This document shows, piece by piece, positions 7,178 through 43,873 of a stretch of 64,000 bases of DNA. The stretch's first letter is position 1; every line of letters begins with the position of its first letter. Origin of the DNA: Escherichia coli (GTDB taxonomy: Bacteria; Pseudomonadota; Gammaproteobacteria; Enterobacterales; Enterobacteriaceae); the NCBI RefSeq assembly GCF_029227855.1, contig NZ_CP074356.1. The stretch is one strand, 5' to 3'. The notes beneath the pieces were generated by a model. The model saw nothing but the letters and a program-made list of their open reading frames with translations. It did no database searches and was not told where the DNA came from. The position numbers were made by a program, and so were the translations under genes.

Positions 7178-8203
7178 TTACTTGGAATATTTTCTTGGAA
7201 TATTTTCAGGTAACGGGACATCAAGTGTCGGTGAAACTTTAACCTTCCTGTCATAGATTAGCACTTGCCCCTCGGTTTTGTGACCAGAGAAAAGTTGCTT
7301 ATCCCGACTGCTTCCTTCATAGTCTGAAATTCCTTTCGCCTTCAGATCATGAAAGGTGAAGTCGGTTAAAATACCTGAAATTTTGCCTGCGCGATTTCTT
7401 GCTTCTACCCACATTTCGTTAAAGCCTTTGTACATATATCGGTTGCCGTACTGATTGCTGATTACATAGGCGGATGTTGGTAACTGTTTTGCTTTTTCGA
7501 TCGCCGCCTGTAATCGTGGACTCCATGCTTTTATCTGTTTTTTTCCTGTTTTCCCTTGCTGGATAAAGATCCCGTCGTTTCCAATCTGCTCCCATTTCAG
7601 CGATAACACATCGGAAACCCTCGCTGCACACAGATAGGCAATTTCCATTGCGATAAAAACAGGAAGAGGTGCAACGCTTAATACTGCCTGGTATTCTTTG
7701 TCGGTTACATATCGTTCGCGGTTTTTGGCCTTGAATTTACTTACACCTGCACATGGGTTAGCCTTCACGTACCCTCGCTCATACCCCCAACTGTAAACGC
7801 GGGACATACTGCTTTTTTCATGGTTGGCTTGCGTTTTACTCTGTTCCCCTCTCTTGTCCATGTATCGACGGATGTGTTCTGGTTTTATGGAATCTGCCGG
7901 CACCTTACCGAATACGGCAAGCAACTTTTTTTGATGTTGCAGATAATCTTTTTGTGTTCTTGGACTGAGGTCACTGTAATAGGCGCTGGCGAGGAATTTT
8001 TCCCACAAGCGACCGAATGTCATTGCACGATCGCGATTATTTACAGTTTCCTCATACTTTTTCCATAAAGCAGCTAAACCATCCTTGATGGCGGTTAGTG
8101 TTACAGATTCTCTGGATGTTGGTTTCCATACATAACTATATTTATTTGGGTATACATTTGGAGGTAATTTTTCGTGTTCAGGATTTTTCCTTCGTCTTCC
8201 CAT
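7178..8203 (-). CDS. int: Prophage tyrosine integrase
   Basis: 341-aa ORF next to tRNA-Ser with a lambda-family integrase C-terminal region (..AWSPRLQAAIEKAK.., ..HDLKAKGISDYEGS..). Confidence 0.9.
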   Translation of the reverse strand: MGRRRKNPEHEKLPPNVYPNKYSYVWKPTSRESVTLTAIKDGLAALWKKYEETVNNRDRAMTFGRLWEKFLASAYYSDLSPRTQKDYLQHQKKLLAVFGKVPADSIKPEHIRRYMDKRGEQSKTQANHEKSSMSRVYSWGYERGYVKANPCAGVSKFKAKNRERYVTDKEYQAVLSVAPLPVFIAMEIAYLCAARVSDVLSLKWEQIGNDGIFIQQGKTGKKQIKAWSPRLQAAIEKAKQLPTSAYVISNQYGNRYMYKGFNEMWVEARNRAGKISGILTDFTFHDLKAKGISDYEGSSRDKQLFSGHKTEGQVLIYDRKVKVSPTLDVPLPENIPRKYSK

Positions 8204-15144: not shown

Positions 15145-15567
15145 GTGGCAAAAGTTTTTACACAAGAAGAGCGGGAAAAAATTAAAGGGCAGGTTGTTGA
15201 ACTCGTACGCCAGAGTGGGCGCGAGACGTTACGACAACTGGAAACTAAAACTGGGGCAACAAGATATCTGATGAGCGTTCTGGCCAGAGAGCTGGTTGCC
15301 AGTGGCGATGTATACAACTCTGGTTACGGGTTATTCCCGTCTGAACAGGCGCGTAAGGACTGGCAAAATGCCCGTAAAAAGCTCTCAAGGGCAAAGCCGA
15401 AGAAACCATCTGCGGTTGATCCGGACCTAATCTGGTCATTACCAGACGGAGAAATACGCCGCTACGACAGGCGCCTGAATATAATCTGTCGCGAGTGCCG
15501 GAAGAGCGAAGCTATGCAGCGTGTACTGGCTTTCTATCAGGGTAATTTTCAGGAGGCGGTACTGTGA
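15145..15567 (+). CDS. Hypothetical phage protein (140 aa)
   Basis: ORF with good spacing after the replication gene; no recognisable domain. Confidence 0.5.
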   Translation: MAKVFTQEEREKIKGQVVELVRQSGRETLRQLETKTGATRYLMSVLARELVASGDVYNSGYGLFPSEQARKDWQNARKKLSRAKPKKPSAVDPDLIWSLPDGEIRRYDRRLNIICRECRKSEAMQRVLAFYQGNFQEAVL

Positions 15568-15981
15568 GTGAAATTAGCTATCAGGCTTCAATTGCCGCTG
15601 GCATTCGCATCAAAGGAGAGGAGCATGGAAATAAAACCAGAGGATTAGTTAAGCAATATCGTTTTATTTCCGATAAAAGAGGATGACCCTCGTAATCAGG
15701 TTAATTTTCTTTATGAGCCATCGGAAAGACCATATTGCCATCACGCTTCTGTCCGGGTTGACGAAAAAGAGCGTCAGGTCCGCTGTAAAATCTGCGGTGC
15801 AGTTGTGGAGCCATTTGACTGGATGCTCTCTGTGGCGAAAAGAGAAACCAGACTGGCAGATGATGTAAGGCTCTTGCGCCAGGAGGAACGGGAAAGGCGA
15901 AAAAATATAGAAAAGCTAATTCAGATTGAGCGTAACGGGAAAGCGCGGATACGCAGGGTGACAAAATCCAAAACTGAATAA
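15564..15981 (+). pseudogene. Frameshifted gene: 40-codon frame (VSEISYQ...) followed in +1 frame by a start-less Cys/His-rich ORF (..RPYCHHASVRVDEKERQVRCKICGAV..)
   Basis: GTG at 15564 overlaps upstream stop with AGGAGG RBS; frame ends at TGA 15684..15686 inside an A-run (GATAAAAGAGGATGA); downstream frame open to 15981 without any start codon. Confidence 0.3.
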
Positions 15982-16257: not shown

Positions 16258-16426
16258 TTTTGGTTCAACTAAATACAACGTCAGTTTTGAAAAATGGCAT
16301 GAACTGTTAATGGACTATGCAGAGTTACGTGGTGGCAGTGCTGCTGATGCTGAAGCATGGCGTGATGATTATGAAGCAGGAAAAAATCCGGTCGAAGCAT
16401 ATTGTGATGAGTGGGGCGATGAATGA
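16250..16426 (+). CDS. Small hypothetical protein (58 aa)
   Basis: Hand-translated MADFGSTKYNVSFEKWHELLMDYAELRGGS...; translationally coupled on both sides. Confidence 0.35.
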   Translation: MADFGSTKYNVSFEKWHELLMDYAELRGGSAADAEAWRDDYEAGKNPVEAYCDEWGDE

Positions 16427-16533
16427 GCGAGATTAATTATCAGGAAGGGTATGAAACGGCGGGGCAAGCAAAACCAGTGGCATGGCGATATCGCTACGTG
16501 AAAAAAGGCGTTACGGACTTTCAGGAGAAGTAG
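16423..16533 (+). CDS. Small hypothetical protein (36 aa)
   Basis: MSEINYQEGYETAGQAKPVAWRYRYVKKGVTDFQEK; ATGA overlap with the upstream gene. Confidence 0.3.
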   Translation: MSEINYQEGYETAGQAKPVAWRYRYVKKGVTDFQEK

Positions 16534-16964
16534 TGGTCTGTTGACTGGAAATATGTACCGAAAAAAGAGGATTGTAACGACAGGCCGAACTATCAAATTC
16601 AGGCCTTATTCACTGCCTCACCAGCCCTGGTTACATCAGAAGAACTGGTTAAAGCTGTGCACTTTTATGAACAACTAAAACGCGAAAATCCACCAACATC
16701 CGGCAACTAGATTAATGGGTTAACTATGTCGGTTAAACGACCAGCCAACTGAAAAAGCGGAAACCTGATTATAGGTTGCCAGATAAGGCAATAAGCTACC
16801 TGGCGCGGAACGGACTGATAAGTATGGGGAATGTTTTACGATGAACCTTTAGACTAAAGAGTTTGTAACGCTATGTAAGTGATTTTTTCTAGTTTAGATA
16901 TTTATATGTCCGGCCAAATTGAGGTGTGTTTAAATGTAATTGCACATTGATTGTAGGAGGAATA

Positions 16965-17401: not shown

Positions 17402-17557
17402 ATGAAGCAGCAAAAGGCGATGTTAATCGCCCTGATCGTCATCTGTTTAACCGTCATAGTGACGGCACTGGTAACGAGGAAAGACCTCTGCGAGGTACGA
17501 ATCCGAACCGGCCAGACGGAGGTCGCTGTCTTCACAGTTTACGAACCTGAGGAGTAA
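17402..17557 (+). CDS. hokD: Hok/Gef-family type I toxin (51 aa), HokD/RelF-like
   Basis: MKQQKAMLIALIVICLTVIVTALVTRKDLCEVRIRTGQTEVAVFTVYEPEE; single TM helix plus conserved Cys pattern. Confidence 0.75.
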   Translation: MKQQKAMLIALIVICLTVIVTALVTRKDLCEVRIRTGQTEVAVFTVYEPEE

Positions 17558-18295: not shown

Positions 18296-19345
18296 GTGCG
18301 GGTATTACTTCGACCTGTTCTGGTACCGGAACTCGGGCTGGTGATCGTTAAGCCGGGCCGTGAATCCATGCCGGTATTCCACAATACCCGGTTACTGGTG
18401 GAGCCGGAACCGAAAAGCATGCGTAATCTGCCGTCCGGGGTCGTTCCTGCCGCTCGCCAGCCGCTGGTGGAAGACAAAACATTGCTGCCGTTTTTCAGTA
18501 ACGCACGGGTGATTCGTGCTGCTGGTGGTGCTGGTGCATTGTCTGACTGGCTGTTGCGCCATATTAAATCCTGCCAGTGGCCACACGGCGATTATCATCA
18601 CAGCGAAACCGTCATTCACCGTTATGGTACCGGCGCAATGGTGTTGTGCTGGCACTGCGACAACCAGCTGCGTGACCAGACATCCGAATCACTCGAGCAA
18701 GTTGCTCATCAAAACCTGTCAGCATGGATGATTGACGTCATCGGTCACGCAATAAGCGGTACGCAGGAGCGTGAATTATCTCTGGCTGAATTATCCTGGT
18801 GGGCGGTCCGCAATCAGGTGGCGGACGCGCTACCGGAAGCGGTATTACGTCGTTCGCTGGGGTTGCGTGCGGAAAAAATCCGCTCAATGTACCGTGAAAG
18901 CGACATCGTACCGGGAGAGCAGACCGCCACCAGCATACTGAAACAGCGCACAAAAAATCTTGCGCCGCTGCCTCACGCCCACCAGCAACAGAACCCACCA
19001 CAGGAAAAGACGGTGGTCAGCATTGCCGTTGATCCTGAGTCTCCGGAATCTTTCATGAAACGACCTAAACGTCGCCGCTGGGTTAACGAGAAATACACAC
19101 GCTGGGTGAAGACACAGCCGTGTGCGTGTTGTGGTAAGCCAGCCGACGATCCCCATCACCTGATTGGTCATGGTCAGGGCGGAATGGGGACAAAATCTCA
19201 CGATATTTTCACGCTACCGCTGTGTCGGGAGCATCACAACGAGCTTCATGCGGATCCGCTGGCGTTCGAAGAAAAGCATGGTTCTCAGGTTGATTTAATT
19301 TTTCGTTTTCTTGATCACGCCTTTGCAACTGGCGTGCTTGGGTAA
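18296..19345 (+). CDS. DUF968-family phage protein (YdfU-like), 349 aa
   Basis: GTG start with GGAGG RBS; C-terminal Cys/His cluster (CACCGKPADDPHHLIGHG...CREHHNELH); typical neighbour of rusA and Q. Confidence 0.75.
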   Translation: MRVLLRPVLVPELGLVIVKPGRESMPVFHNTRLLVEPEPKSMRNLPSGVVPAARQPLVEDKTLLPFFSNARVIRAAGGAGALSDWLLRHIKSCQWPHGDYHHSETVIHRYGTGAMVLCWHCDNQLRDQTSESLEQVAHQNLSAWMIDVIGHAISGTQERELSLAELSWWAVRNQVADALPEAVLRRSLGLRAEKIRSMYRESDIVPGEQTATSILKQRTKNLAPLPHAHQQQNPPQEKTVVSIAVDPESPESFMKRPKRRRWVNEKYTRWVKTQPCACCGKPADDPHHLIGHGQGGMGTKSHDIFTLPLCREHHNELHADPLAFEEKHGSQVDLIFRFLDHAFATGVLG

Positions 19346-20692: not shown

Positions 20693-20769
20693 CGGTCCTT
20701 TAGCTCAGTGGTGAGAGCGAGCGACTCATAATCGCCAGGTCGCTGGTTCAAATCCAGCAAGGGCCACCA
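20693..20769 (+). tRNA. Phage-borne tRNA with CAU anticodon (Met or lysidine-Ile2 type)
   Basis: GGTCCTTTAGCTCAGTGGTGAGAGCGAGCGACTCATAATCGCC...GGGCCACCA; cloverleaf folds. Confidence 0.85.
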
Positions 20770-20874: not shown

Positions 20875-20951
20875 GCGTTGTTAGCTCAGCCGGACAGAGC
20901 AATTGCCTTCTAAGCAATCGGTCACTGGTTCGAATCCAGTACAGCGCGCCA
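20875..20951 (+). tRNA. Phage-borne tRNA-Arg (anticodon UCU)
   Basis: GCGTTGTTAGCTCAGCCGGACAGAGCAATTGCCTTCTAAGCAATCGGTCACTGGTTCGAATCCAGTACAGCGCGCCA. Confidence 0.85.
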
Positions 20952-32499: not shown

Positions 32500-32775
32500 A
32501 TGTCGATGTACACAACCGCCCAGCTGCTGGCGGCAAATGAGCAGAAATTTAAGTTTGATCCGCTGTTTCTGCGTCTCTTTTTCCGTGAGAGCTATCCCTT
32601 CACCACGGAGAAAGTCTATCTCTCACAAATTCCGGGGCTGGTAAACATGGCGCTGTACGTTTCGCCGATTGTTTCCGGTGAGGTTATCCGCTCCCGTGGC
32701 GGCTCCACCTCTGAATTTACGCCGGGATATGTCAAGCCGAAGCACTTAGCATGGCTTTCTGAGGCTTTCGTGTAG
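32500..32775 (+). pseudogene. E: Major capsid protein E, 5' fragment (codons 1-82) disrupted by insertion
   Basis: MSMYTTAQLLAANEQKFKFDPLFLRLFFRESYPF...EFTPGYVKPKH matches lambda gpE, then reads into foreign sequence (LAWLSEAFV, stop at 32775). Confidence 0.85.
32735..32744 (+). repeat. Left copy of 10-bp direct repeat AGCCGAAGCA (putative att core of the inserted element)
   Basis: Identical 10-mer at 43864..43873 exactly where E homology resumes. Confidence 0.6.
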
Positions 32776-32907
32776 CTGCTGGTTTTTACACTTAATCTTT
32801 TGATAATAAAGAATAAGTTTATCTGGCGCTTTCACTGAATTTTCCTCGTTATCTGTGTGTTGCAATCATCTCTGTATTGCAGCTTGTATTGCTTTTTGGG
32901 GCTAAAA

Positions 32908-34143
32908 ATGGCTGGCGAGAACAAACTGAGCGACAAAGCGCTTAAAGGATATCTGGGGAAACCCAGAGAAAAGCAGATCACCATTGCTGATGGAAAGGGG
33001 CTTTCTATTCGTGTGAGTACTAAAGGGGCTGTGAGCTTTGTTTTCTTCTACAGGTTAGCAGGTGGCCGGGCTGCTCCGGTCTGGCTAACGTTGGGTAAAT
33101 ATCCTGATATGTCACTCAAACAGGCAAGGGAAAAGCGCGACGAGTGCCGTGGTTGGTTGGCTGACAAACGTGATCCGCGTATCCAGATTAAGATTCAGGC
33201 TGAAGAACGCTTAAAGCCGGTCACAGTGGAGGATGCACTAAATTACTGGTATGAAAATTACTGTAAGGTGCGTCGTAAAACTCATGCTGTAACGCTTGGC
33301 AGATTTCGAAAGCATATCTTTCCCTATATCGGTCATTTGCCCGTAAATGACACTCACCTATATGAATAGCTGGACTGTTTTGACCGAATTAAACGTAATG
33401 CACCAGTTATGGCGGCGTATGTTTTTTCTGACACTAAATTAGCTCTTCGTTTTTGTCGGGTACGCCAGTACGCGACGTGTGATGCTTTAAAGGATTTGCG
33501 CATGAGTGATGTGGGGCAGATTGCAGGTAAGCGGGATCGGGTTCTGGATGAGGTCGAACTCGGCCAGCTCTGGAAGGCAATTTTTGTCGAGCCTGATTTA
33601 AAACTAATGTCTGAATACACGCGAAAAATGTTTGTGCTTTGTACAGTATTTGGATGTCGAATGAGTGAAGCCCGATTATCAGAATGGAGCGAATGGGATC
33701 TCGAAAGTTGGGTTTGGACTGTGCCAAAAGATCACTCAAAAACTGGTGTTGAAATCGTCAGACCAGTACCTGAAATTCTACGACAGTGGGTAACGGATGT
33801 TCACGAAGAGACAAAACATACTGGTTATGTGCTGGGAAGTCTGCGAATTAGAGAAAGCGTAAGCAAGATTGGGGGGAAAATCGGTAAACGTTTGGGCCAT
33901 GAAAAACAATGGTCACTACACGACCTTAGAAGAACGCTATCTACTCATCTAAGTGATCTCGGTGTTGAATTTTATGTAGTAGAACAACTGTTAGGCCATG
34001 CGCTACCTGGCGTGGCAGGTGTTTACAACCGGAGTAAGTTTATGGCTAAAAAACTGGATGCTCTGGAACTCTGGACTACATATCTCAATAGCATCGCAGC
34101 TGCTGATTCAAAAGTGACAATCCTCAAACAAAAGGCTGGTTAG
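32908..34143 (+). pseudogene. int: P4-type tyrosine integrase interrupted by an in-frame amber codon (TAG at 33367..33369)
   Basis: Track ORFs 32857..33369 and 33409..34143 are in the same frame; P4-int-like N-terminus (..KGLSIRVSTKGAVSFVFFYR..GKYPDMSLKQAREKRDE..); TAG sits where homologues have Trp. Confidence 0.8.
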
Positions 34144-34144
34144 C

Positions 34145-34375
34145 ATGAAAAAAATGGCAATTGTTGATAAAAAGGGTCTGGAGTACATTCCTAACATTGA
34201 CCGAATGATCCGTGAGAAAGAATGTCGGGAGCTAACTACTCTTGCGAACAGCACACGCTGGAAGCTGGAGAAGGAAGGAAAATTTCCTAAGCGGATCAAG
34301 ATTGGTTCCACTGCTGTTGCATATCGTCTTTCAGAAGTGCAGGCATGGATTCGAGGTGAGTGGGAAACAACTTAA
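34145..34375 (+). CDS. alpA: AlpA-family transcriptional regulator / excisionase-like protein
   Basis: 76 aa, HTH (..CRELTTLANSTRWKLEKEGKFPKRIKIGSTAVAYRLSEVQAWI..) directly after int. Confidence 0.75.
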   Translation: MKKMAIVDKKGLEYIPNIDRMIREKECRELTTLANSTRWKLEKEGKFPKRIKIGSTAVAYRLSEVQAWIRGEWETT

Positions 34376-34382
34376 CTATTAG

Positions 34383-35213
34383 GTGGGCATTGTGGCTATA
34401 TTTCATTATACAGATCTTTTTGGTTTGAAAGGTATATTAGACTCTAATTCTTTATGGGCTACAAACATATATTTCTTAAATGATAAAGAGGAGTCTAACC
34501 ATGGATGTGAATGCTTTCGAAATACAATTAAAATAGTTGATGACAATATCATTCCAAAAGATAAGAAAACTATTTTGCTCAAGTCTCTTGACATGTATGA
34601 GAAAGGGAGGTTACAAAAAGAAAAAGGGATTGATAAACATGTTTATAGCATCTCTTTTTGTAAGGAAAACGATAAGTTAAGTCAGTGGAGAGGTTACGGA
34701 AATAAACAGGGTGTTTGCATTGAGTTTGATGCGGATGAACTTGTGAGCTTTTCTCAAAATATTTATTTAAATTGTGTTGCACATGATGTTATATATTCAA
34801 ATAATAACGATATTACTAAGATGAGTAAGGAGTTGGGAGAGTTTTTTTCTTGTAATGGTATTAATATTAAAGAAATGAATGATCATTTTGTAACAATGGT
34901 CTCTACGTATCAATTTATATCTAAATACATCCCATTTTTTAAACATCCTAGTTTTATCGAAGAGAATGAATTTAGATTGGTATTTACTCCGTGGATGCAA
35001 ATGCCAGATGTGCACTTCAGAATAAATAATAATGGGATCATCCCTTATATCATCATTGATAATAAAGATAATAGAAAGTTACCAATTAAAAGCATTACAA
35101 TTGGCCCGACAAACGATTATGATTTCATTGAGGCTGGTATAAAAATGTTCTTGGATTCAAGAGGATTTAGTTCTGTGGAAATTAAATCCTCATCAATTCC
35201 ATTCAGGGGGTAA
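34383..35213 (+). CDS. DUF2971-like protein (276 aa), AT-rich cargo gene
   Basis: N-terminal IFHYTDLFGLKGILDSNSLWATNIYFLNDKEE resembles the DUF2971 signature; very low GC; start could be GTG 34383 or GTG 34391. Confidence 0.6.
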   Translation: MGIVAIFHYTDLFGLKGILDSNSLWATNIYFLNDKEESNHGCECFRNTIKIVDDNIIPKDKKTILLKSLDMYEKGRLQKEKGIDKHVYSISFCKENDKLSQWRGYGNKQGVCIEFDADELVSFSQNIYLNCVAHDVIYSNNNDITKMSKELGEFFSCNGINIKEMNDHFVTMVSTYQFISKYIPFFKHPSFIEENEFRLVFTPWMQMPDVHFRINNNGIIPYIIIDNKDNRKLPIKSITIGPTNDYDFIEAGIKMFLDSRGFSSVEIKSSSIPFRG

Positions 35214-35258
35214 GGATTAACACTTTTAATCTATGATATTATAAAAATGGTGGATAAA

Positions 35259-35278
35259 GGCGACCAGAATTGGTCGCC
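35259..35278. terminator. Bidirectional hairpin between convergent cargo genes
   Basis: AGGCGACCAGAATTGGTCGCC perfect inverted repeat. Confidence 0.4.
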
Positions 35279-35344
35279 AATGTGAGTATATAGTTAGCCT
35301 TAATCAGAATACGAGGTTATCGCCTGATAGGCAATGTGAACAGT

Positions 35345-35701
35345 TCAATATTTAGGTGGTTCAACAAGAGCGTTTATCATTGCTCTCAAATTATCGCGAA
35401 CACTTATCCAAGTCTGTTCTGCTCGTTCTAACTCATCAGTGTACAACTTTAATGTTTTATCTATGCCATATGTGGCTATTAAATTTATAGCTTCTTGTAA
35501 TTTTTCAGGATTATTCCTTCTTGGGGGAGTGAATATACCACGGATTTTTCCGGTAATTAAAGCTTTACGGTGTCTACATAGAATACCTTTACTTCCTGCT
35601 GGACAATTACAAGTCATGATTAGCGAGCCAGAATCGTTTGATACAGTGACTATGTATACATCCAAACTACTGCTACTTGTTGCGAAGAATTCGTATTTCA
35701 T
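35345..35701 (-). CDS. Small SWIM-type zinc-finger protein (118 aa)
   Basis: CNCPAGSKGILCRH (CxC..CxH) motif; AT-rich. Confidence 0.55.
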   Translation of the reverse strand: MKYEFFATSSSSLDVYIVTVSNDSGSLIMTCNCPAGSKGILCRHRKALITGKIRGIFTPPRRNNPEKLQEAINLIATYGIDKTLKLYTDELERAEQTWISVRDNLRAMINALVEPPKY

Positions 35702-35728
35702 GTGTTAGCTCCTTGACTTCAATTATTC

Positions 35729-35860
35729 TTATCCTTTTGGTTCAATACCGCGCCGTAGCAGCTCTTTGCGCCCTAATTCTTTAAGCCAGTTGGCTAGGCT
35801 TATGCCGTCGCTCTGCGCTTCTTTGTCGAATTGCTCTTTTAGCTCTGGAGAAATTCGCAT
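35729..35860 (-). CDS. Small ribbon-helix-helix-like protein (43 aa; longer in-frame form to 36043 possible)
   Basis: MRISPELKEQFDKEAQSDGISLANWLKELGRKELLRRGIEPKG; immediately upstream of the SWIM gene on the same strand. Confidence 0.45.
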   Translation of the reverse strand: MRISPELKEQFDKEAQSDGISLANWLKELGRKELLRRGIEPKG

Positions 35861-36059
35861 TCTGAATTGTGGAGATTGCCCATCACCCTTAGGACTTTTA
35901 TCGCGTTTGATCGTTGACAAGTGACCACCTATTGAATTAGCCTTTTCATTGTTAGGTGACCACCTTAACACGGGGGCACTTAAAAAAGCAAAGCCCGAAG
36001 GTGCTGGGAACACCAACGGGCTTCTAACCACCAACGATAGCAACAGTATCGAGGTAGCT

Positions 36060-36263
36060 ATGAGAAATCATACCACACACCCGCAAGGGCGGGACCCGCA
36101 CAACCTGAATAAATACATCTGGCGTTTTATCGCCTTGAGTACGGCACAACCGCGCATGATTACCATCGAGGCCATCAGCGAACAGGAAGCCCGCCAGCAA
36201 TCCCCAACTGGCTGCGTGATGGTATTCGCCGCCCGTATTCGTCAGGAGGTGTGCCGTGCTTAA
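36060..36263 (+). CDS. Small hypothetical satellite protein (67 aa)
   Basis: ATG with GAGG RBS; first of five tightly coupled small genes preceding the primase. Confidence 0.4.
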   Translation: MRNHTTHPQGRDPHNLNKYIWRFIALSTAQPRMITIEAISEQEARQQSPTGCVMVFAARIRQEVCRA

Positions 36264-36441
36264 AACCTTCCGTGTATTTGCCCGAGCTGTTAACCCACTG
36301 GGCCACACAATTGGTATCACTCAGAACGTGAAGGCTGTTAATGTTCAGACGGCTATTGCTGCGGTGAGAAGCGAATCATCAGAATATGGCTTATCACAAG
36401 TCATTATTTCAGCAGTGTATGAATTAAAAGAGGTGCATTAA
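36256..36441 (+). CDS. Small hypothetical satellite protein (61 aa)
   Basis: Track ORF, overlaps neighbours by a few nt. Confidence 0.4.
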   Translation: MLKTFRVFARAVNPLGHTIGITQNVKAVNVQTAIAAVRSESSEYGLSQVIISAVYELKEVH

Positions 36442-36632
36442 TGCAGGAAATCACATTACACGAAGCCGCTGAACGTGCGCACCAGACAGAAATTATTTGC
36501 CGCCTTCTTGAGGTATACCCGAACAAAATTACAGATGCTGATATATCCGCGCTGGCGAGCCTACTGGCGCGCCTTTCGGGAAGTGTCGCTAGTTTCCTGA
36601 TTGAGGAAGAAAGTAAGCTGGTGGGGGATTAA
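36441..36632 (+). CDS. Small hypothetical satellite protein (63 aa)
   Basis: Track ORF, start overlaps upstream stop. Confidence 0.4.
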   Translation: MQEITLHEAAERAHQTEIICRLLEVYPNKITDADISALASLLARLSGSVASFLIEEESKLVGD

Positions 36633-36854
36633 ATGAATACAGAACGGGAAGTCTTTTTTAAATTGTTAGCATGTGCAGAAAGTTCATTAACTTTAAATAA
36701 TTCAGCAAAAGCAATATTAAATATGTGGCTTGATTGCATAAATGACAATGAAGATGCAAATATTGCTTATGGCCTGTTGTCACTTATTGATGAATCAGCA
36801 GAAAAACTCAATGACGCAATAAATAGTGCCCTGCTATCAAATAAGTCGAGTTAA
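36633..36854 (+). CDS. Small hypothetical satellite protein (73 aa)
   Basis: Track ORF. Confidence 0.4.
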   Translation: MNTEREVFFKLLACAESSLTLNNSAKAILNMWLDCINDNEDANIAYGLLSLIDESAEKLNDAINSALLSNKSS

Positions 36855-36871
36855 GTCGAGGAATAAATAAT

Positions 36872-37171
36872 ATGGAAATGAAAAATTCTGGCTTTATTGC
36901 CAGCGGCCCCGCTCGGCCTGAATTTATGAACGGCGATATTTACCGCGATAAATACGGCGGCACGGTAACGATTAAAGGCGTGGCAGAACGGCGCATCACT
37001 TACCGCCGTGAGGGGTATAGCTATGACTGCGTGATGCCTGTTTATCAGTTCCGGCGTGATTTTTCCCTGGTATATGCCGCACCCCGCAGTAAGCCCATCA
37101 GCAGGGAAAAAGCGCGGGGAAACATCCAGAAAATGAAAAGCATGATTAACGCATTCAGGGGCAAAAAATGA
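36872..37171 (+). CDS. Small hypothetical satellite protein (99 aa)
   Basis: Track ORF, stop overlaps primase start. Confidence 0.45.
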   Translation: MEMKNSGFIASGPARPEFMNGDIYRDKYGGTVTIKGVAERRITYRREGYSYDCVMPVYQFRRDFSLVYAAPRSKPISREKARGNIQKMKSMINAFRGKK

Positions 37172-38919
37172 AACTGGCACCGAACTTAAAAAAACAGCCA
37201 CGCGACAGACTGACAGAGGTAATCATCTTTGCAGGTAGTGATGCGTGGAGCCATGCGAAAGAGTGGCGGGAATGGGCGGGTAAACATATTGCCGCCGACG
37301 ATGTGCCGCCTGTCGTGCTGGCTGATGAGCAACTGAAAAATATCACCGATTACCGGATCATTGATGAAGATCGTCAGTGTGTGCGTGTTTACCGCGCAGG
37401 ACATATCACAGAGCACAGCATGACGCAGATTGTTACGTTACTGGCTGTGGCTGGAGTGAAGACCGTACACGAATACGCGGGGATTACTGACACCAGCCCA
37501 GTGGATTTATCCGAGCAGTTGCCGCGACTCAAAGAGGAATGCGAGCGTGGGGAAAGTCTGGTGCTTAATCTTCCGACGAAGCAAAAGGCGCAACTTTCAC
37601 AGATGGCAGACAGTGAACGTGCACAACTACTTGCCGATCGCTTTGATGGTGTGTGTGTTCATGCAGAAAGTGAAATCGTCCACGTATGGCGCGGCGGGGT
37701 ATGGTGTCCGGTCAGCACAATGGAGCTGAGCCGCGAAATGGTGGCGATCTATTCAGAGCACAGGGCCACGTTCAGCAAACGTGTAATCAATAACGCCGTG
37801 GAAGCGTTAAAAGTTATTGCCGACCCCATGGGGGAGCCGTCCGGTGATTTGCTACCGTTCACTAATGGTGTGCTTAACCTGAAAACGGGGGAATTTTCTC
37901 CGCACTCGCCGGAGCACTGGAGCACCACGCACAATGGCATTGAGTACACGCCACCAGTAGCAGGGGAAAACATCCGCGATAATGCGCCAAATTTCCATAA
38001 ATGGCTTGAACATGCTGCAAGAAAAGACCCGCGCAAGATGATGCGTATATGTGCCGCGTTATACATGATTATGGCGAACCGCTACGACTGGCAGATGTTC
38101 ATTGAGGCCACCGGAGACGGGGGAAGCGGTAAGAGTACATTTACCCATATTGCCACCCTGCTTGCTGGCAAACAGAACACCGTAAGCGCGGAGATGACAT
38201 CACTCGATGATGCAGGAGGGCGCGCGCAGGTTGTCGGGAGTCGTCTTATCGTCCTTGCCGATCAGCCGAAATATACGGGGGAAGGCACGGGCATCAAGAA
38301 AATCACGGGAGGCGATCCCGTTGAAATTAACCCGAAATATGAGAAGCGATTCACGACGATAATAAGGGCGGTGGTACTGGCAACCAATAACGACCCGATG
38401 ATCTTTACCGAACGGGCCGGAGGTGTGTCACGCCGTCGGGTGATTTTCCGGTTCGACAACATTGTAAGGGAGGACGAAAAAGACAAGGAATTACCGGAAA
38501 AGATAGCGGCAGAAATCCCCGTAATTATCCGCCGCTTGCTGGCTAATTTTGCTGACCCTGAAAAGGCACGGGCTTTATTACTGGAACAGCGTGACGGTGA
38601 TGAAGCTCTGGCAATAAAGCAGCAAACGGATCCGGTTGTTGAGCTTTGCGCGGCGCTGGAGTTTCTGGAGGAAGCTCGTGGGCTAATGATGGGCGGTGGT
38701 GGTGACACCGTGAAGTACACGACCAGAAACAGCCTTTACCGTGTCTATATGGCCTTCATGGCATACACAGGAAAGGGGAAATGTTTGAGCGTGAATGAGT
38801 TCGGAAAGGCTATGAGGTCAGCGGCGAAAGTTTACGGATATGAATATATTACGCGAAAAGTTAAGGGAGTCACGCAGACCAACGCAACGACTACTGATGA
38901 TTGCGATGCGTTTTTATAA
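37168..38919 (+). CDS. Primase/replicase (P4 alpha / D5-type), 583 aa
   Basis: Walker A GDGGSGKST in the C-terminal half; large N-terminal domain; followed by iterons. Confidence 0.8.
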   Translation: MKLAPNLKKQPRDRLTEVIIFAGSDAWSHAKEWREWAGKHIAADDVPPVVLADEQLKNITDYRIIDEDRQCVRVYRAGHITEHSMTQIVTLLAVAGVKTVHEYAGITDTSPVDLSEQLPRLKEECERGESLVLNLPTKQKAQLSQMADSERAQLLADRFDGVCVHAESEIVHVWRGGVWCPVSTMELSREMVAIYSEHRATFSKRVINNAVEALKVIADPMGEPSGDLLPFTNGVLNLKTGEFSPHSPEHWSTTHNGIEYTPPVAGENIRDNAPNFHKWLEHAARKDPRKMMRICAALYMIMANRYDWQMFIEATGDGGSGKSTFTHIATLLAGKQNTVSAEMTSLDDAGGRAQVVGSRLIVLADQPKYTGEGTGIKKITGGDPVEINPKYEKRFTTIIRAVVLATNNDPMIFTERAGGVSRRRVIFRFDNIVREDEKDKELPEKIAAEIPVIIRRLLANFADPEKARALLLEQRDGDEALAIKQQTDPVVELCAALEFLEEARGLMMGGGGDTVKYTTRNSLYRVYMAFMAYTGKGKCLSVNEFGKAMRSAAKVYGYEYITRKVKGVTQTNATTTDDCDAFL

Positions 38920-38935
38920 AAAATGGCAATGGTTA

Positions 38936-39170
38936 TCTACCTTGTCTACCTGACTGAAAGAAAATACTTTTATTTCAATGTATTAATGCAGGTAGATAAC
39001 TATTTTTCACTGTCTACCTGTTATCTACCTTATCTACCCATTTTTGTAGACAGGTAAGGAGACGGGTAGAGATGAGGTAGACAGCTATTTGGGGCTGTCT
39101 ACCTCCCTGAAACCCGCGCCATTACTGGCCTGATAACTAATCAGGTAGACAAGGTAGACAAGGTGGTGGT
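38936..39170. repeat. Iteron array (putative satellite replication origin)
   Basis: About 12 copies of (A/G)TCTACC / GGTAGA(C/T) in both orientations within ~235 bp. Confidence 0.7.
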
Positions 39171-39208
39171 GCACAAAAAACTTTTTAAACGAGGGGGTAA
39201 AAATAAAA

Positions 39209-39466
39209 ATGCACACTTCAGGAAAACTGAACAAACATATAAAGCCACATTACCGCGCCCTTGATATGGCTGAACACTGGCTAAGGGTGGCGATTAAGGC
39301 AATAGACCGCAACGCCGGGGAAGGATACGCGAAAGCACATCCCGAACTGATAAGCGCATTCATGACAACGGCGGCTGCAAACTTTGCCACGCTGACCGAA
39401 CGGGAGATTGCTGAAGCGGAGGAAGTGACAACAATCAATATTAAGTCCGGAGAGCAGGCAGCATGA
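39209..39466 (+). CDS. Hypothetical satellite protein (85 aa)
   Basis: Track ORF, translationally coupled to the SSB gene. Confidence 0.45.
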   Translation: MHTSGKLNKHIKPHYRALDMAEHWLRVAIKAIDRNAGEGYAKAHPELISAFMTTAAANFATLTEREIAEAEEVTTINIKSGEQAA

Positions 39467-39912
39467 CGGCGCAAATATCAGTTTACGGGCGGTTGGTGGA
39501 CGACCCGCAGACAAAACAGACCAGCAAGGGCACCCCCATGACGCTGGCGCGTATGGCGGTATCACTGCCCTGCAGTCAGTCGGATGACGGTCTGGCGACG
39601 TTGTGGTTATCTGTCCTGGCGTTTGGCAGACAAGCCGACGCGCTGGCAAAGCATCACAAAGGCGAACTCCTGAGCGTGGCGGGTAACATGCAGATGAGCC
39701 AGTGGACTGGACAGAACGGCGAAACGCGGCAGGGCTGGCAGGTTATCGCAGACAGCGTAATCAGTGCGCGATCGGTGCGACCGGGCGGCAAAAAAGGCCA
39801 ACAGGGGCAGGCTACTGACGCACTGAACAGAGCAAAACAACAGGCAGATCAGCAAGGAAGCCAGCCACCAGAGGGAGATAATGAGCAATGGGGAGATGAT
39901 ATCCCGTTTTAA
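39463..39912 (+). CDS. ssb: Single-stranded DNA-binding protein
   Basis: OB-fold-like N-terminus, Gly/Gln-rich linker and acidic C-terminal tail ending DDIPF. Confidence 0.8.
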   Translation: MTAQISVYGRLVDDPQTKQTSKGTPMTLARMAVSLPCSQSDDGLATLWLSVLAFGRQADALAKHHKGELLSVAGNMQMSQWTGQNGETRQGWQVIADSVISARSVRPGGKKGQQGQATDALNRAKQQADQQGSQPPEGDNEQWGDDIPF

Positions 39913-40128
39913 ATATTGCCAATAAAAAAAGCCGGAAAAAATAAATTTTCCGGCATGCTACATAAATCCCGACCAAAGGGAGTGAAGATATTAACACTAA
40001 TTGTCCGCACTGAAGTTGTCACACCAAAACTTTATACAACATTGCACTCGGTTGCATGTGTTCGCATGACAAATATCGGTGATAGCATATATCCACAATT
40101 ATTTTTAATGAATGCAAAGAGGATGCGT

Positions 40129-41169
40129 ATGGTTGATTTATATTCGCCTACTCAGCTTGTACAGGTAGTTAATGCTGTAGATGTACAAAAACAACTAAAT
40201 GCGTTGTTTACCAGTTTGTTTTTTACTCGCTCGGTAATGTTTGAATCGCGCGATATTATTCTTGATACAATCGACGATCCAAATATCCCAATTGCAGCGT
40301 TTTGTTCTCCTATGGTGGGTAGTAAAGTTTCACGTGACGAAGGGTACGAATCAAAAACAATTCGTCCAGGCTATATGAAGCCGAAAAGCAGCATTGATCC
40401 AAATAAGTTAGCTGTGCGCCCTGCTGGTGTGTCACCTGAGCAATACAATGCTTTTGGGGCGCGTAATATTAAAGTTAAACAGGCGATTGTAAATCAGGCT
40501 AAAGCTATTCGTGCACGTATTGAATGGCTTGCTGTTCAGGCAATCACAACGGGGAAAAATATCATTGAGGGCGATGGTATTGAACGTTATGAGCTGGACT
40601 GGAATATAAAACCACAAAATATCATCACTCAGTCTGGCGGTACTGAGTGGTCAGGTAAGGATAAAGAAACTTTTGATCCAAATGATGATATTGAGAGCTA
40701 CGCAGAATTTAGTGAGGGCGTCACTAATATCATCATTATGGGTGGTAATGTATGGAAGAAATACCGTTCATTCAGAGCGATAAAAGAGGCTTTGGATACC
40801 CGTCGTGGTTCTAATTCCGAACTGGAAACGGCCCTTAAAGACCTTGGTGATTCGGTGAGTTTTAAAGGGTATATGGGCGATGTTGCGATTGTTGTTTACA
40901 GCGGGCGTTATACCGACGAGGACGGAACAGAAAAACATTTCCTTGATCCTGATTTGATGGTGCTTGGCAATACGGCTCTTCAGGGGATTGTCGCCTATGG
41001 CGGTATTCAGGATCCGGAGCTAATCCGAATGGGGCTGACTAAAGCCGAACTTGCACCGAAAAACTATATTGTGCCTGGTGATCCGGCTATTGAATATGTG
41101 CAGACACATTCAGCACCACAGCCAATACCGGCCCGCATCAATCGTTTTGTTACCGTTCGCATTGGCTAA
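40129..41169 (+). CDS. Satellite-encoded major capsid protein, lambda gpE family (346 aa)
   Basis: Collinear similarity to gpE (ITQSGGTEWSGKDKETFDPNDDIESYA..., ..LDTRRGSNSELETALKDLG..GDVAIVVYSGRY..MVLGNT..); start set at MVDLYSPTQ with AGGA RBS. Confidence 0.8.
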   Translation: MVDLYSPTQLVQVVNAVDVQKQLNALFTSLFFTRSVMFESRDIILDTIDDPNIPIAAFCSPMVGSKVSRDEGYESKTIRPGYMKPKSSIDPNKLAVRPAGVSPEQYNAFGARNIKVKQAIVNQAKAIRARIEWLAVQAITTGKNIIEGDGIERYELDWNIKPQNIITQSGGTEWSGKDKETFDPNDDIESYAEFSEGVTNIIIMGGNVWKKYRSFRAIKEALDTRRGSNSELETALKDLGDSVSFKGYMGDVAIVVYSGRYTDEDGTEKHFLDPDLMVLGNTALQGIVAYGGIQDPELIRMGLTKAELAPKNYIVPGDPAIEYVQTHSAPQPIPARINRFVTVRIG

Positions 41170-41178
41170 GGGGGAGCA

Positions 41179-41520
41179 ATGGCTACTCATTACACTGAAC
41201 TCATGGCTGGCACTGAAGCACTGGTGACTACGCTGGGGATATTTTCAGCTAATAAAGGGGTAATTCCTGCATTTACGCCACTGATGCAGGAAGATGCAAC
41301 AGGTGCACTGGTGGTATGGGATGGTTCGAGCGTAGGTAAAGCGGTTTATGTTTCCGCTGTACAAATCGACACCGCGAAAAAAACACAGGCTCAGGTCTAT
41401 AAGACAGGTGTCTTAAATGTTGATGCTCTGAACTGGCCTGAGTCTGTTAAAGAACTGTCAGTAAAGGTTGCAGCGTTTGTTGGCTCAGGTATTTCTGTTC
41501 AGCCGCTGGCTCGTGTGTAA
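41179..41520 (+). CDS. Satellite-encoded head decoration protein, lambda gpD-like (113 aa)
   Basis: Shares THY, TPLM, LVVWDG, YKTG, WPE, AF.G..IS motifs with gpD at matching positions. Confidence 0.7.
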   Translation: MATHYTELMAGTEALVTTLGIFSANKGVIPAFTPLMQEDATGALVVWDGSSVGKAVYVSAVQIDTAKKTQAQVYKTGVLNVDALNWPESVKELSVKVAAFVGSGISVQPLARV

Positions 41521-41531
41521 AGGGGGATACA

Positions 41532-41915
41532 ATGCAGAATGATTACAATGACCTTAAGCCAATTGCCGAAATGATGTACCCGAATCAAGCTGTAGAGGAA
41601 TTAAAAGCTATCGCTGACAAAATGTGTTTAAGCGAGCGCCTTGTTGATATGAATCAGGTGATGGAAATTACAACCCTGAGTCGTCGTACACTGCTAAACC
41701 TTGAGGCTAGTGGAGAGTTCCCGGAGCGTGTGCAGGTTACGGAAGGGCGTAAGGCCTGGTATTTAAGTGAAGTGATCGACTGGATAAATAATATTCCTCG
41801 CGCTTCTGAATATTGCCGCGTACCTGTCCCAAAAAAGCCAGATGCGGCGCTATGCCTCAAGATTGAGCGTGTACGCCGCAATGCACGGGATGGTCGCTAT
41901 AAGCTGATTGGTTGA
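41532..41915 (+). CDS. AlpA/MerR-like winged-HTH protein immediately upstream of the satellite cos
   Basis: 127 aa with HTH (..MNQVMEITTLSRRTLLNLEASGEFPERVQVTEGRKAWYLSEVIDWINN..). Confidence 0.6.
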   Translation: MQNDYNDLKPIAEMMYPNQAVEELKAIADKMCLSERLVDMNQVMEITTLSRRTLLNLEASGEFPERVQVTEGRKAWYLSEVIDWINNIPRASEYCRVPVPKKPDAALCLKIERVRRNARDGRYKLIG

Positions 41916-41939
41916 TGAAATTAGGACCCGCTCTGGCTG

Positions 41940-42145
41940 GCGGGTCCTTTCCGGCGATCCAGAACGTTACGGGGCGTCAGGCGCGCAGTTTTTCGCTATT
42001 TGTGAAAATTTTCCTGTTTAAGGCGTTTCCGTTCTTCTTCGCCGTAACTTAATGTTTTTATTAAAAACACCCCCTAAAAAGAAAGGAAACGACAGGTGCT
42101 AAAAACAGGCTTTTTGGCCTCTGTCGTTTCCTTTCTCTGGTTTTG
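41940..42145 (+). other. Second cos site, belonging to the satellite: altered cohesive-end sequence (GGGCGTCAGGCG at 41972..41983) with lambda-type cosB elements
   Basis: GGGTCCTTTCCGGCGATCC..GTTACG|GGGCGTCAGGCG|CGCAGTTTTTCGCTATTTGTGAAAATTTTCCTGTTTAAGGCGTTTCCGTTCTTCTTCG..GAAAGGAAACGACAGGTG..TCTGTCGTTTCCTTTCTC tracks lambda cos closely. Confidence 0.75.
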
Positions 42146-42481
42146 TTGCCATCCGTCGCGGTCTATCACCAGAAAAAATCTTATCCCTGAGTTGAATCAG
42201 GCCCTATTCAGAAGCGGCCAATAACGCGCCGCTAGCTTCACTTCATAGTTATGGCCTACTTCTGCGCCATTGCAATTGCTTTATGCGCCTTGATGGTGGA
42301 ATATAGAGCAAGCAGTTTGCGAATAACAAAGTTTCATATGTTTTTTGCTGTGTGGCTAGACAACTTTACAGCAGAGTTTTGTGTCAGTTCTTTATGTGTG
42401 CAAGCAAGCTTGAGGGGGAATTACTTCTGGCTGTATCTTTGCTTAAGAACAGCAATAATTTAATCATAAGGAAATGTATAT

Positions 42482-42504
42482 AAGCCTGATTAAATTTCAG
42501 GCTT
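42482..42504 (-). terminator. Hairpin terminator after the TIR gene
   Basis: AAGCCTGA-TTAAATT-TCAGGCTT just 3' of the stop. Confidence 0.4.
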
Positions 42505-42513
42505 ATTGAAATG

Positions 42514-43656
42514 TTAACTCCTTATTAGAGAGTAAATTCCATCCTCTTTAAGGAAGTCTATTACTTCAAAGAATGAGATAAAGAATTCCCAAGAACCAAA
42601 AGCATATGCATGAATTTCGTAAGGTGCAAAATGGAATCTAAATCCATCACTATTTATTGTGAACGAGTCTAAGTTACTATCCATGATACCCGTTGCAAAC
42701 GTACTAATGTCGTCCTCACTTGGTTTTTCACCAGTTTTCTCCCAAAATTCACGAGCTGATTCAGAGATTATTTTTTGTTTTATCTTATTAATCGCTTCTT
42801 GCTCTTTCCCTTCGGTAAATACATCCCATAAACTAAATTTGTATGCGTAGTCATCCTTGGTTATTACGAAATTACTAGTTTCAAAATGACTGTTAGGGTG
42901 TGCTGCTCCCGCACCATACCAATGTACGGAATGAAGGATGCTCATGACATTTTCGTTACAGTATGAGATGTTATAACTTTCATTATAGGAACTAGTGTAA
43001 GTGTGTTTATATTCTTCATCCCAATATGGTGTTCCTGGCCATAGTGATGTGCGTTCAGAAAAAATATGTAAAGCCGCTTTTCCTGAAAAGTAATCACTAA
43101 TGAGTTTTGCTGATTTCGGTAATGTATGGCTTTCAATTCTTGGATATGCTATTTCAATTTCATGCCCTGGGATCTTGTTATATTCTTCCTTGAAAACCTC
43201 GCTGCTAAAGTTAAATGGCCCATAAGTGATACCTTGAGATATTTCAAGTTTTTGTTGCGATGCTGCTAATCTTAAAGATCTAGATAAAATGTCCCAACCA
43301 TCATTTCTCTTAAAATCAATGAATTGGAGCTTGCTTGATATGTAGGCGGGTACTTCGCAATCATCAATAAGTAATGGTATCACGAACACATCATCTGGTT
43401 TGTAATACTTTAGTTTATCAATGGCGTCATTTATTTCGCGGCGAATATAACCATTTTTCTGAGTGCTCACTTTGCTAAGGATAAGGATTATCAAGTTTGA
43501 ATTAGCGAAGTTTTTTTGGATTTCATAATCCCAGTTTACGCCAGCGGGTATATCTTTTACATCCATCCAAGGGGAATATCCTCCACTTTTTAGCCTTTCA
43601 TAGATTTCTTCAGTTATCGTTTCATCTTCTTTTGCATGAGCAAGAAAAATTTTCAT
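42514..43656 (-). CDS. TIR-domain protein with ~250-aa C-terminal domain of unknown function (380 aa); candidate anti-phage defence gene
   Basis: N-terminus MKIFLAHAKEDE...SNLIILILSKVS..YIRREINDAIDK..VIPLLIDD fits the bacterial TIR pattern; AAGGA RBS; AT-rich; between satellite cos and right att repeat. Confidence 0.75.
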   Translation of the reverse strand: MKIFLAHAKEDETITEEIYERLKSGGYSPWMDVKDIPAGVNWDYEIQKNFANSNLIILILSKVSTQKNGYIRREINDAIDKLKYYKPDDVFVIPLLIDDCEVPAYISSKLQFIDFKRNDGWDILSRSLRLAASQQKLEISQGITYGPFNFSSEVFKEEYNKIPGHEIEIAYPRIESHTLPKSAKLISDYFSGKAALHIFSERTSLWPGTPYWDEEYKHTYTSSYNESYNISYCNENVMSILHSVHWYGAGAAHPNSHFETSNFVITKDDYAYKFSLWDVFTEGKEQEAINKIKQKIISESAREFWEKTGEKPSEDDISTFATGIMDSNLDSFTINSDGFRFHFAPYEIHAYAFGSWEFFISFFEVIDFLKEDGIYSLIRS

Positions 43657-43863
43657 TGAATATTCCTTTATAATTTAACTAATTAAGTGAAGGAGGCTTT
43701 ACTTGGCTGTGTTAGAAAAAATTCGGTTTGTTTTTTGTACGATGCCAAGAAGGCTTTTCCCTAACCATGTATTGCAGCATGTATTGCTACGTAATTCTGC
43801 ACCCTCTCATTTATAAAATAAATCTCTGTTAAATCAAGTATCTTTTTTCTATTTGACTCATGT

Positions 43864-43873
43864 AGCCGAAGCA
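43864..43873 (+). repeat. Right copy of 10-bp direct repeat AGCCGAAGCA
   Basis: Identical to 32735..32744; E reading frame resumes immediately after. Confidence 0.6.

What the first reader, a model, noticed from the sequence alone, without database searches (positions are those of the whole stretch)
15564..15981. Start-less Cys/His-rich ORF fused out of frame to a short upstream ORF
A 40-codon frame with good RBS ends at TGA inside an A-run, and a +1-frame ORF without any start codon continues for ~110 codons. This looks like a frameshift mutation (pseudogene) or, less likely, a programmed frameshift.
Basis: seen in the sequence. Interest (0 to 1): 0.3.

Follow-up and report, generated by a model that had tools for sequence, protein, structure and literature searches.

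The report
Amber-stopped prophage gene, not frameshift
The "start-less" open reading frame is an ordinary small prophage gene that has its own start codon but was knocked out by a single-base change creating a stop at codon 8. It is a decaying pseudogene, not a frameshift or a recoding signal.

Summary
The ~110-codon start-less frame (15649-15981) belongs to a gene that starts at ATG 15625, behind a strong ribosome-binding site (AAGGAGAGGAG, 15613-15623). Its codon 8 is TAG (15646-15648). All seven intact homologues compared have GAG (Glu) there and encode one 118-aa protein, MEIKPEDELSNIV... The A-run has the same length in every homologue, so there is no frameshift.

The same G>T change at 15646 destroys the TGA that closes the other frame in homologues.

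The gene is a lambdoid "nin-region" protein of unknown function (phrog_1621). It has a CxH...CxxC zinc ribbon followed by a long conserved helix.

Among complete E. coli genomes, 90 records carry the amber allele and 1190 the intact one. Amber copies show relaxed constraint (4 non-synonymous changes to 1 synonymous, against 4 to 26 in intact copies). Two strains have a second stop at a zinc-ligand cysteine. The next gene downstream is also a pseudogene.

RefSeq annotates the amber allele as two overlapping hypothetical proteins, which is very probably an annotation artefact. Verdict: an ordinary nonsense pseudogene of low interest.

The parts
15625..15981 (+). The real gene: 118 codons plus TAA, a phrog_1621 nin-region zinc-ribbon/helix protein. 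It is inactivated by an amber codon at position 8.
   Evidence: Translation. Intact 118-aa homologues start at the same ATG. phrog_1621 match at E = 1.5e-56 over residues 1-117.
15646..15648 (+). Premature amber codon TAG, from a G>T change at 15646. Intact alleles have GAG (Glu8), which is invariant in the family alignment.
   Evidence: DNA alignment column 107; codon table; E8 invariant in 27 family members.
15613..15623 (+). Shine-Dalgarno sequence AAGGAGAGGAG serving ATG 15625. It is conserved in all homologues, including those with a different upstream gene.
   Evidence: Sequence; alignment; upstream sequences.
15564..15686 (+). It is 27 codons in intact alleles and was extended because the same G>T change destroys its TGA (15645-15647). 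It is probably a start-plus-tail remnant of an Ead/Ea22-like gene. RefSeq annotates it as WP_001345625.1.
   Evidence: frame-0 stretch in 13 loci; PGAP; Ea22 relation; exact product on about 1000 contigs.
15551..15556 (+). AGGAGG 7 nt upstream of GTG 15564.
   Evidence: Sequence.
15658..15981 (+). The 107-codon CDS that PGAP calls in genomes with the amber allele, using a non-canonical ATC start (WP_225104553.1). It lacks the conserved N-terminal ELSN motif.
   Evidence: N-terminal conservation.
15736..15795 (+). Codons for the predicted zinc ribbon, Cys38-x-His40 ... Cys54-x-x-Cys57.
   Evidence: C54 and C57 invariant, C38 and H40 at least 90% conserved. Beta-hairpins at residues 43-46 and 51-54 in the AlphaFold model. 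Sub-threshold Zn_Ribbon_TF hit. Weak TFIIB-ribbon fold match.
15811..15975 (+). Codons for the long C-terminal helix (residues 63-117), including the near-invariant EKLIQIERNAKARIRR segment.
   Evidence: AlphaFold model with helix 63-117, pLDDT 77-92. Conservation.
15145..15567 (+). Upstream neighbour: DUF977 / Ren-like exclusion protein gene, intact. Its stop overlaps GTG 15564.
   Evidence: Pfam DUF977 at E = 1.6e-29; phrog_142.

Best explanation
A single G>T transversion at 15646 changed codon 8 (GAG, Glu) of a 118-codon lambdoid-prophage nin-region gene into an amber stop. Ribosomes that start at ATG 15625 terminate after seven residues (MEIKPED). The remaining 110 codons therefore stay open but have no usable start. 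The gene is a nonsense pseudogene in a prophage that is decaying in other places too.

The same base change removes the TGA that ends a short ORF in the overlapping frame. That ORF is probably a relic of an Ead/Ea22-like gene. It grows from 27 to 40 codons and gives the false impression of an upstream ORF fused out of frame.

Shown: the nonsense change, the absence of indels, the own start and RBS, the spread of the allele, and the extra damage in amber copies.

Inferred: no meaningful amount of protein is made from the amber allele, and loss of the gene is neutral because nin-region genes are accessory.
For: 1. In-frame ATG, seven codons, TAG, then 110 codons.
2. Seven intact homologues have GAG at that codon, and the DNA alignment has no gaps from the RBS to the stop.
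3. Glu8 and the ELSNxVxFP motif are invariant or nearly so across Enterobacterales homologues.
4. The frame-0 ORF ends at TGA exactly at the mutated base in every intact allele.
5. The exact 55-mer with TAG occurs in 90 complete E. coli records and the version with GAG in 1190. This rules out sequencing error.
6. Codons found only in amber alleles are 4 non-synonymous or nonsense (A105G, R108W, R116K, C57*) against 1 synonymous. Intact alleles vary by 4 non-synonymous against 26 synonymous (Fisher p = 0.006). Ala105 is G only in the amber copies among 29 aligned proteins and Arg108 is invariant in the family.
7. Strains 13P460A and 1EC213 carry a second stop at zinc-ligand Cys57, and PGAP marks those copies as 'internal stop' pseudogenes.
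8. The next gene (16423-16844) is also decayed. Near-identical prophages have a frameshifted integrase and IS insertions.
9. No suppressor tRNA lies in the window.
10. Distant homologues in Yersinia and Klebsiella are single ORFs in the nin region, between NinH or YbcO and the Q antiterminator.
Against: - The 110 codons after the TAG are still open in the window, and the amber allele has persisted in at least two prophage backgrounds. The flanking DUF977 gene differs by 8-10% between them while the gene itself differs by less than 1%. Some residual use cannot be excluded from sequence alone.
- The selection test rests on only 5 lineage-specific changes in 6 amber copies.
- No expression data are available.
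Confidence: 0.93

Rival explanations
1. Residual expression by restart. After terminating at UAG codon 8, ribosomes re-initiate nearby, at AUC 15658 as in the PGAP model, AUA 15673 or GUG 15805. This would make an N-terminally truncated but functional protein, so the locus would be an attenuated gene rather than a dead one.
For: - PGAP calls a 107-aa CDS from ATC 15658 in genomes with this allele.
- The frame is still open in the window.
- The allele is widespread: 90 complete genomes, with the exact 107-aa product on 349 contigs.
- Restart after early nonsense codons is known in E. coli (my own knowledge of lacI and T4 rIIB restarts).
Against: - AUC and AUA are very weak initiators, and the nearest purine-rich stretch (GAGGA, 15639-15643) lies 14 nt upstream of the ATC.
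- A restart product would lack the invariant Glu6, Glu8 and Asn11 motif.
- Changes specific to amber alleles hit conserved residues.
- A second stop has arisen at Cys57 in two strains.
Confidence: 0.04
2. One reading: a frameshift mutation fused or split a gene whose N-terminus is the 40-codon ORF and whose C-terminus is the start-less frame.
For: Two overlapping frames lie in the right order. An AAAA run sits near the junction.
Against: - Intact homologues have no indel anywhere in the region, and the A-run has the same length in all of them.
- Their protein starts at the ATG in the downstream frame.
- The 40-codon ORF is only 27 codons in intact alleles and stops before the proposed junction.
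Confidence: 0.01
3. Programmed +1 ribosomal frameshift from the 40-codon ORF into the long frame, for example tRNA-Lys slipping on A-AAA-AGA (15675-15680) before the rare AGA codon.
For: AAA followed by the rare AGA codon could in principle be shift-prone (my own knowledge). The ORF overlap spans 15649-15683.
Against: - The two-ORF arrangement exists only in the mutant allele. In intact alleles the frame-0 ORF ends about 30 nt upstream of that site.
- The fused product would replace the conserved N-terminal motif with unrelated sequence.
- The AAAAGAGG sequence is explained by the gene's own codons (K18-E19).
Confidence: 0.01
4. Amber read-through or suppression keeps the gene functional in its host.
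For: The stop is UAG, the codon most often suppressed in E. coli laboratory strains (my own knowledge).
Against: - No tRNA with a CUA anticodon lies in the window.
- The hosts are diverse wild isolates from humans, chickens, pigs and river water.
- UAG followed by U is a strong termination context (my own knowledge).
- Amber copies show decay.
Confidence: 0.01

Closest known systems
Nonsense-mutation pseudogenes in cryptic or decaying lambdoid prophages of E. coli (Qin/Rac-type)
   Same: A single premature stop in an accessory early-right-operon gene. Neighbouring genes are also disrupted, and changes accumulate afterwards under relaxed constraint.
   Different: Nothing essential differs. The one twist is that the same base change lengthens an overlapping relic ORF.
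phrog_1621: uncharacterised small proteins of the lambdoid nin region (118-128 aa; E. coli, Shigella, Salmonella, Klebsiella, Kluyvera, Yersinia, Erwinia, Pluralibacter)
   Same: The restored sequence matches over its full length at E = 1.5e-56. It shares the ELSNxVxFP N-terminal motif, the CxH...CxxC ribbon and the EKLIQIERNAKARIRR helix. It sits in the same operon position, between the replication genes and Q.
   Different: The window copy carries the amber at codon 8 plus A105G and R116K.
TFIIB-type zinc ribbon (Pfam PF08271)
   Same: It is the best Pfam hit (residues 36-73) and the best PDB fold hit (1pft) for the ribbon part.
   Different: The Pfam score is 21.5 bits, below the 29-bit cut-off. 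The Foldseek E-value is 0.22. One ligand is His rather than Cys. This is a resemblance in fold class only.
Programmed +1 frameshifting as in prfB (RF2)
   Same: A short upstream frame ends at TGA, with a longer +1 frame continuing beyond it.
   Different: No conserved shift site, no internal SD-like stimulator at the right distance, and no conservation of the two-frame layout. Homologues are single ORFs.

Membership tests
Nonsense (premature-stop) pseudogene | An in-frame stop where intact, conserved homologues have a sense codon, with no indel | tested here: met
   TAG against GAG at codon 8, with gap-free alignment.
Nonsense (premature-stop) pseudogene | Relaxed constraint or further disabling mutations downstream of the stop | tested here: met
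   4 non-synonymous to 1 synonymous in amber-only codons, against 4 to 26 in intact alleles (p = 0.006). A second stop, C57*, in two strains. The sample is small.
Nonsense (premature-stop) pseudogene | No protein made from the disrupted frame | not testable with these tools
   Needs proteomics, ribosome profiling or reporter fusions.
phrog_1621 (lambdoid nin-region protein of unknown function) | Significant full-length match to the family HMM | tested here: met
   E = 1.5e-56, residues 1-117 against profile positions 1-120 of 134. The query was the intact ArgO145 homologue (about 95% identical to the restored window protein), not the window sequence itself.
phrog_1621 (lambdoid nin-region protein of unknown function) | Location in the early-right (nin) operon of a lambdoid phage | tested here: met
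   In the window it lies after the O-like and DUF977 genes and before hokD, RusA and Q. In Yersinia it lies between NinH and Q, and in Klebsiella between YbcO and Q.
Pfam Zn_Ribbon_TF (PF08271) | Score at or above the gathering threshold of 29 bits | tested here: not met
   21.5 bits, E = 1.6e-4.
Frameshift pseudogene | An insertion or deletion relative to intact homologues at the frame junction | tested here: not met
   No indel. The A-run is identical in length.
Programmed ribosomal frameshift | Two-frame architecture and shift site conserved among homologues | tested here: not met
   Homologues are single ORFs, and the frame-0 ORF stops upstream of the overlap.
Suppressor-dependent (amber) gene | A cognate suppressor tRNA (anticodon CUA) available | tested here: inconclusive
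   None among the 4 tRNAs in the window (Asn-GTT, Ser-CGA, CAT, Arg-TCT). The rest of the host genome is not in the window.

The most novel reading that the evidence does not exclude
The amber allele is kept as an attenuated, low-level or conditionally expressed version of a nin-region protein that is harmful to the host at full dose. Expression would come from restart at AUC/AUA or from rare UAG read-through. This could explain why the allele persists and has moved between prophage backgrounds.
Probability: 0.03. Interest if true: 0.3.

Novelty: already known. Interest (0 to 1): 0.06.

Why it matters
Biologically it matters little. It is one more accessory gene lost in a decaying prophage.

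Its practical value lies in annotation. RefSeq carries the amber allele as two overlapping 'hypothetical proteins': WP_001345625.1 (40 aa) and WP_225104553.1 (107 aa, ATC start). Their exact sequences occur on hundreds of contigs. PHROGs even holds a family for the 40-aa ORF (phrog_37408). Both are most simply by-products of a single nonsense mutation and would be better annotated as one pseudogene.

The intact family (phrog_1621, zinc ribbon plus a highly conserved basic helix) remains uncharacterised. That is a separate question from this finding.

Tried and rejected
- **Frameshift at the A-run.** Rejected: the alignment with intact homologues has no indel.
- **Programmed +1 shift at A-AAA-AGA.** Rejected: the two-frame layout exists only in the mutant allele.
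- **Sequencing error.** Rejected: the identical allele occurs in 90 independent complete genomes.
- **Phage-borne amber suppressor.** None among the window's tRNAs.
- **Functional assignment of the intact protein.** Little came of this.
  - Pfam gave only a sub-threshold zinc-ribbon hit.
  - NCBIfam and PADLOC gave nothing.
  - A PDB sequence-profile search gave nothing at E up to 1.
  - A Foldseek search of PDB with the AlphaFold model (mean pLDDT 71) gave nothing below E = 0.2; the best hit was the TFIIB ribbon.
  - Literature searches for DUF977 with prophage, and for the PHROG and WP accessions, found nothing relevant.
- **A possibly meaningful second in-frame TAG.** The neighbour gene has one at 16531-16533. 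It turned out to lie in a heavily diverged pseudogene that also carries a deletion. The intact codon there is CCG, two changes away, so there is no common mechanism.

Full report
**What is in the sequence**

The region was read directly and its ORFs listed. A GTG-started 40-codon ORF runs from 15564 to 15686 (VSEISYQASIAAGIRIKGEEHGNKTRGLVKQYRFISDKRG*). AGGAGG lies 7 nt upstream of it. Its GTG overlaps the TGA of the preceding DUF977 gene (15145-15567; Pfam E = 1.6e-29).

In the +1 frame, 110 sense codons run from 15649 to the TAA at 15979-15981. They contain no ATG, GTG or TTG before GTG 15805.

The TGA at 15684-15686 is not inside an A-run. The only run is AAAA at 15675-15678.

The long frame contains an ATG at 15625, directly behind AAGGAGAGGAG (15613-15623). 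Seven codons follow, then an in-frame TAG at 15646-15648: MEIKPED*LSNIVLFP....

**Comparison with intact relatives**

A megablast search against phage records found the region in lambdoid and Stx phages. The annotated homologues in phages 640R1, Ro157c2 and ArgO145 are single genes whose products begin, or internally contain, MEIKPEDELSNIV....

The DNA alignment is gap-free from the ribosome-binding site to the stop codon. The A-run has the same length in all of them. The one relevant difference is T in the window against G in the homologues at 15646, which is GAG>TAG at codon 8.

Four complete E. coli genomes carry even closer intact alleles, sharing Ile17 with the window. These are SC516, Ecol_545, DEC5A and CUVET18-1475. 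PGAP annotates each as one 357-nt CDS starting at this ATG.

The lesion is therefore a nonsense mutation, not a frameshift.

**Why a 40-codon ORF appears**

In every intact allele the other frame ends at a TGA formed by bases 15645-15647...GGA TGA G. The G>T change that creates TAG in the gene frame turns this TGA into TTA. The short ORF grows from 27 to 40 codons and then overlaps the long frame. The apparent 'fusion out of frame' is a by-product of the same point mutation.

In ArgO145 the last 16 codons of that frame (AGIRIKGEEHGNKTRG*) form the C-terminus of a full-length Ead/Ea22-like protein (PF13935, E = 7.6e-40). In Ro157c2 a near-identical tail (AGIHIKGEEHGNKTRR*) ends an upstream protein that has no Pfam hit. 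The mini-ORF's start (GTGAGTGAAATTAGCTATCAGG, SEISYQ) resembles the MSEI(D/N)YQ starts of neighbouring Ea22-type genes. By inference, the mini-ORF is the start and tail of a deleted Ea22-like gene. That would account for its good RBS.

**How common the allele is**

I searched complete E. coli genomes with a 55-base query centred on the site.
- The version with T matches exactly in 90 records.
- The version with G matches exactly in 1190 records.

Sequencing error is therefore excluded, and the amber allele is a minority variant.

It occurs in at least two prophage backgrounds. The gene differs by 2-3 bases of 357 between amber copies, whereas the adjacent DUF977 gene differs by 34-42 of 422.

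For the amber allele, PGAP annotates two overlapping hypothetical proteins. One is the 40-aa ORF (WP_001345625.1). The other is a 107-aa CDS from a non-canonical ATC at 15658 (WP_225104553.1). The exact sequences are on about 1000 and 349 contigs in the large protein collection. PHROGs also holds a 40-aa family matching the mini-ORF (phrog_37408).

**Is the amber allele dead?**

Several observations say it is.
- Strains 13P460A and 1EC213 carry the amber plus a second stop, TGC>TGA, at Cys57, one of the invariant zinc ligands. PGAP flags those copies as pseudogenes with an 'internal stop'.
- Codons seen only in amber copies comprise four non-synonymous or nonsense changes (C57*, A105G, R108W, R116K) and one synonymous change.
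- The seven intact alleles differ at 26 synonymous and 4 non-synonymous variants (Fisher p = 0.006).
- Arg108 is invariant in the family. Position 105 is Ala in nearly all members, Val in two, and Gly only in the amber lineage.
- A restart at ATC 15658 would remove the invariant Glu6, Glu8 and Asn11 motif.
- No suppressor tRNA lies in the window.

The numbers are small and there are no expression data. I leave about 5% for residual expression.

**Context**

The window is about 99% identical to a lambdoid (Qin/Rac-like) prophage beside mtfA and tRNA-Ser in E. coli WP8-S18-ESBL-07.

The gene order is dicB-ydfABC, repressors, YdaT-like, O-like replication protein, DUF977, this gene, DUF7167, a small ORF, a decayed gene, hokD, DUF968, RusA, Q, lysis genes and structural genes.

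The gene at 16423-16844 is itself decayed relative to an intact 171-aa homologue. It has an in-frame TAG and a deletion of about 86 nt.

In the reference genome the integrase is frameshifted, and IS elements and a group II intron interrupt other genes. This is a prophage in decay.

**What the intact gene is**

- It matches phrog_1621, of unknown function, at E = 1.5e-56 (query: the intact ArgO145 protein).
- Homologues of 114-128 aa occur across Enterobacterales, down to about 47% identity.
- They conserve an N-terminal ELSNxVxFP motif, a Cys-x-His...Cys-x-x-Cys set and a nearly invariant EKLIQIERNAKARIRR segment.
- AlphaFold (mean pLDDT 71) predicts a disordered N-terminus, a small beta-hairpin ribbon and one long helix at residues 63-117.
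- The only similarities are weak ones to TFIIB-type zinc ribbons: Pfam 21.5 bits against a cut-off of 29 and Foldseek E = 0.22.
- Nothing was found in NCBIfam, PADLOC or PDB sequences, and nothing in the literature searches.
- In Yersinia and Klebsiella prophages the homologue sits between NinH or YbcO and the Q antiterminator, always as a single ORF.

It is thus a nin-region accessory gene. Nin genes are dispensable for lambda growth (my own knowledge of the nin5 deletion), which fits neutral loss.

**Verdict**

This is an ordinary nonsense pseudogene in a decaying prophage, of low interest apart from a correctable annotation artefact in public databases.

Noticed in passing
window 32744-43864: About 11 kb is present here but absent from the otherwise ~99% identical prophage of NZ_AP022261.1. 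It sits inside the head-gene block. It encodes:
- an integrase split into two ORFs (32857-33366 and 33409-34140);
- a DUF2971 protein;
- a D5_N/DUF5906 primase-helicase (37168-38916);
- a Phage_cap_E major capsid protein (39916-41166);
- a TIR_2 plus DUF3298 protein on the minus strand (42517-43656).

It looks like a satellite or PICI-like island carrying a TIR defence-type gene, inserted into a prophage.
   Followed up: partly
window 16423-16844: The gene two ORFs downstream is a decayed pseudogene. It has an in-frame TAG at 16531-16533 (the intact CUVET18 homologue has CCG) and a deletion of about 86 nt relative to that 171-aa homologue. PGAP marks the equivalent as 'frameshifted; internal stop'.
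   Followed up: yes
window 15564-15647 (the frame-0 mini-ORF as it is in intact alleles): The mini-ORF looks like the start (SEISYQ) and the last 16 codons (AGIRIKGEEHGNKTRG*) of an Ead/Ea22-like gene with its middle deleted. In phage ArgO145 the same tail ends a full-length upstream Ead/Ea22-like gene that overlaps the ATG of the zinc-ribbon gene by 23 nt; in Ro157c2 a near-identical tail ends a different upstream gene with no Pfam hit.
   Followed up: partly
protein P0038 (another E. coli genome); equivalent to window ~15631-15635: One database protein, MSEISYQASITAGIRIKGEEHGNKPEDELSNIV..., is a genuine frame fusion of the mini-ORF with the zinc-ribbon gene. It is consistent with loss of one A in the ATAAAACC run. 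Proteins P0004 and P0006 are Ea22-zinc-ribbon fusions.
   Followed up: no
window 20694-20769 and 20875-20951: Two prophage-borne tRNA genes lie just after the Q antiterminator gene. One has anticodon CAT, which PGAP calls tRNA-Ile in the near-identical genome. The other is tRNA-Arg(TCT), which reads the rare AGA codon.
   Followed up: no
window 7178-8203 (minus strand) and 18296-19345: The window has a 341-codon integrase ORF and an uninterrupted 349-codon DUF968 ORF. In the near-identical prophage of NZ_AP022261.1 the integrase is annotated as frameshifted and an IS21-family element splits DUF968. The window's copy is therefore less degraded at those two genes.
   Followed up: no
window 17402-17557: An intact hokD (relF-type) type I toxin gene lies about 1.4 kb downstream of the finding.
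   Followed up: no
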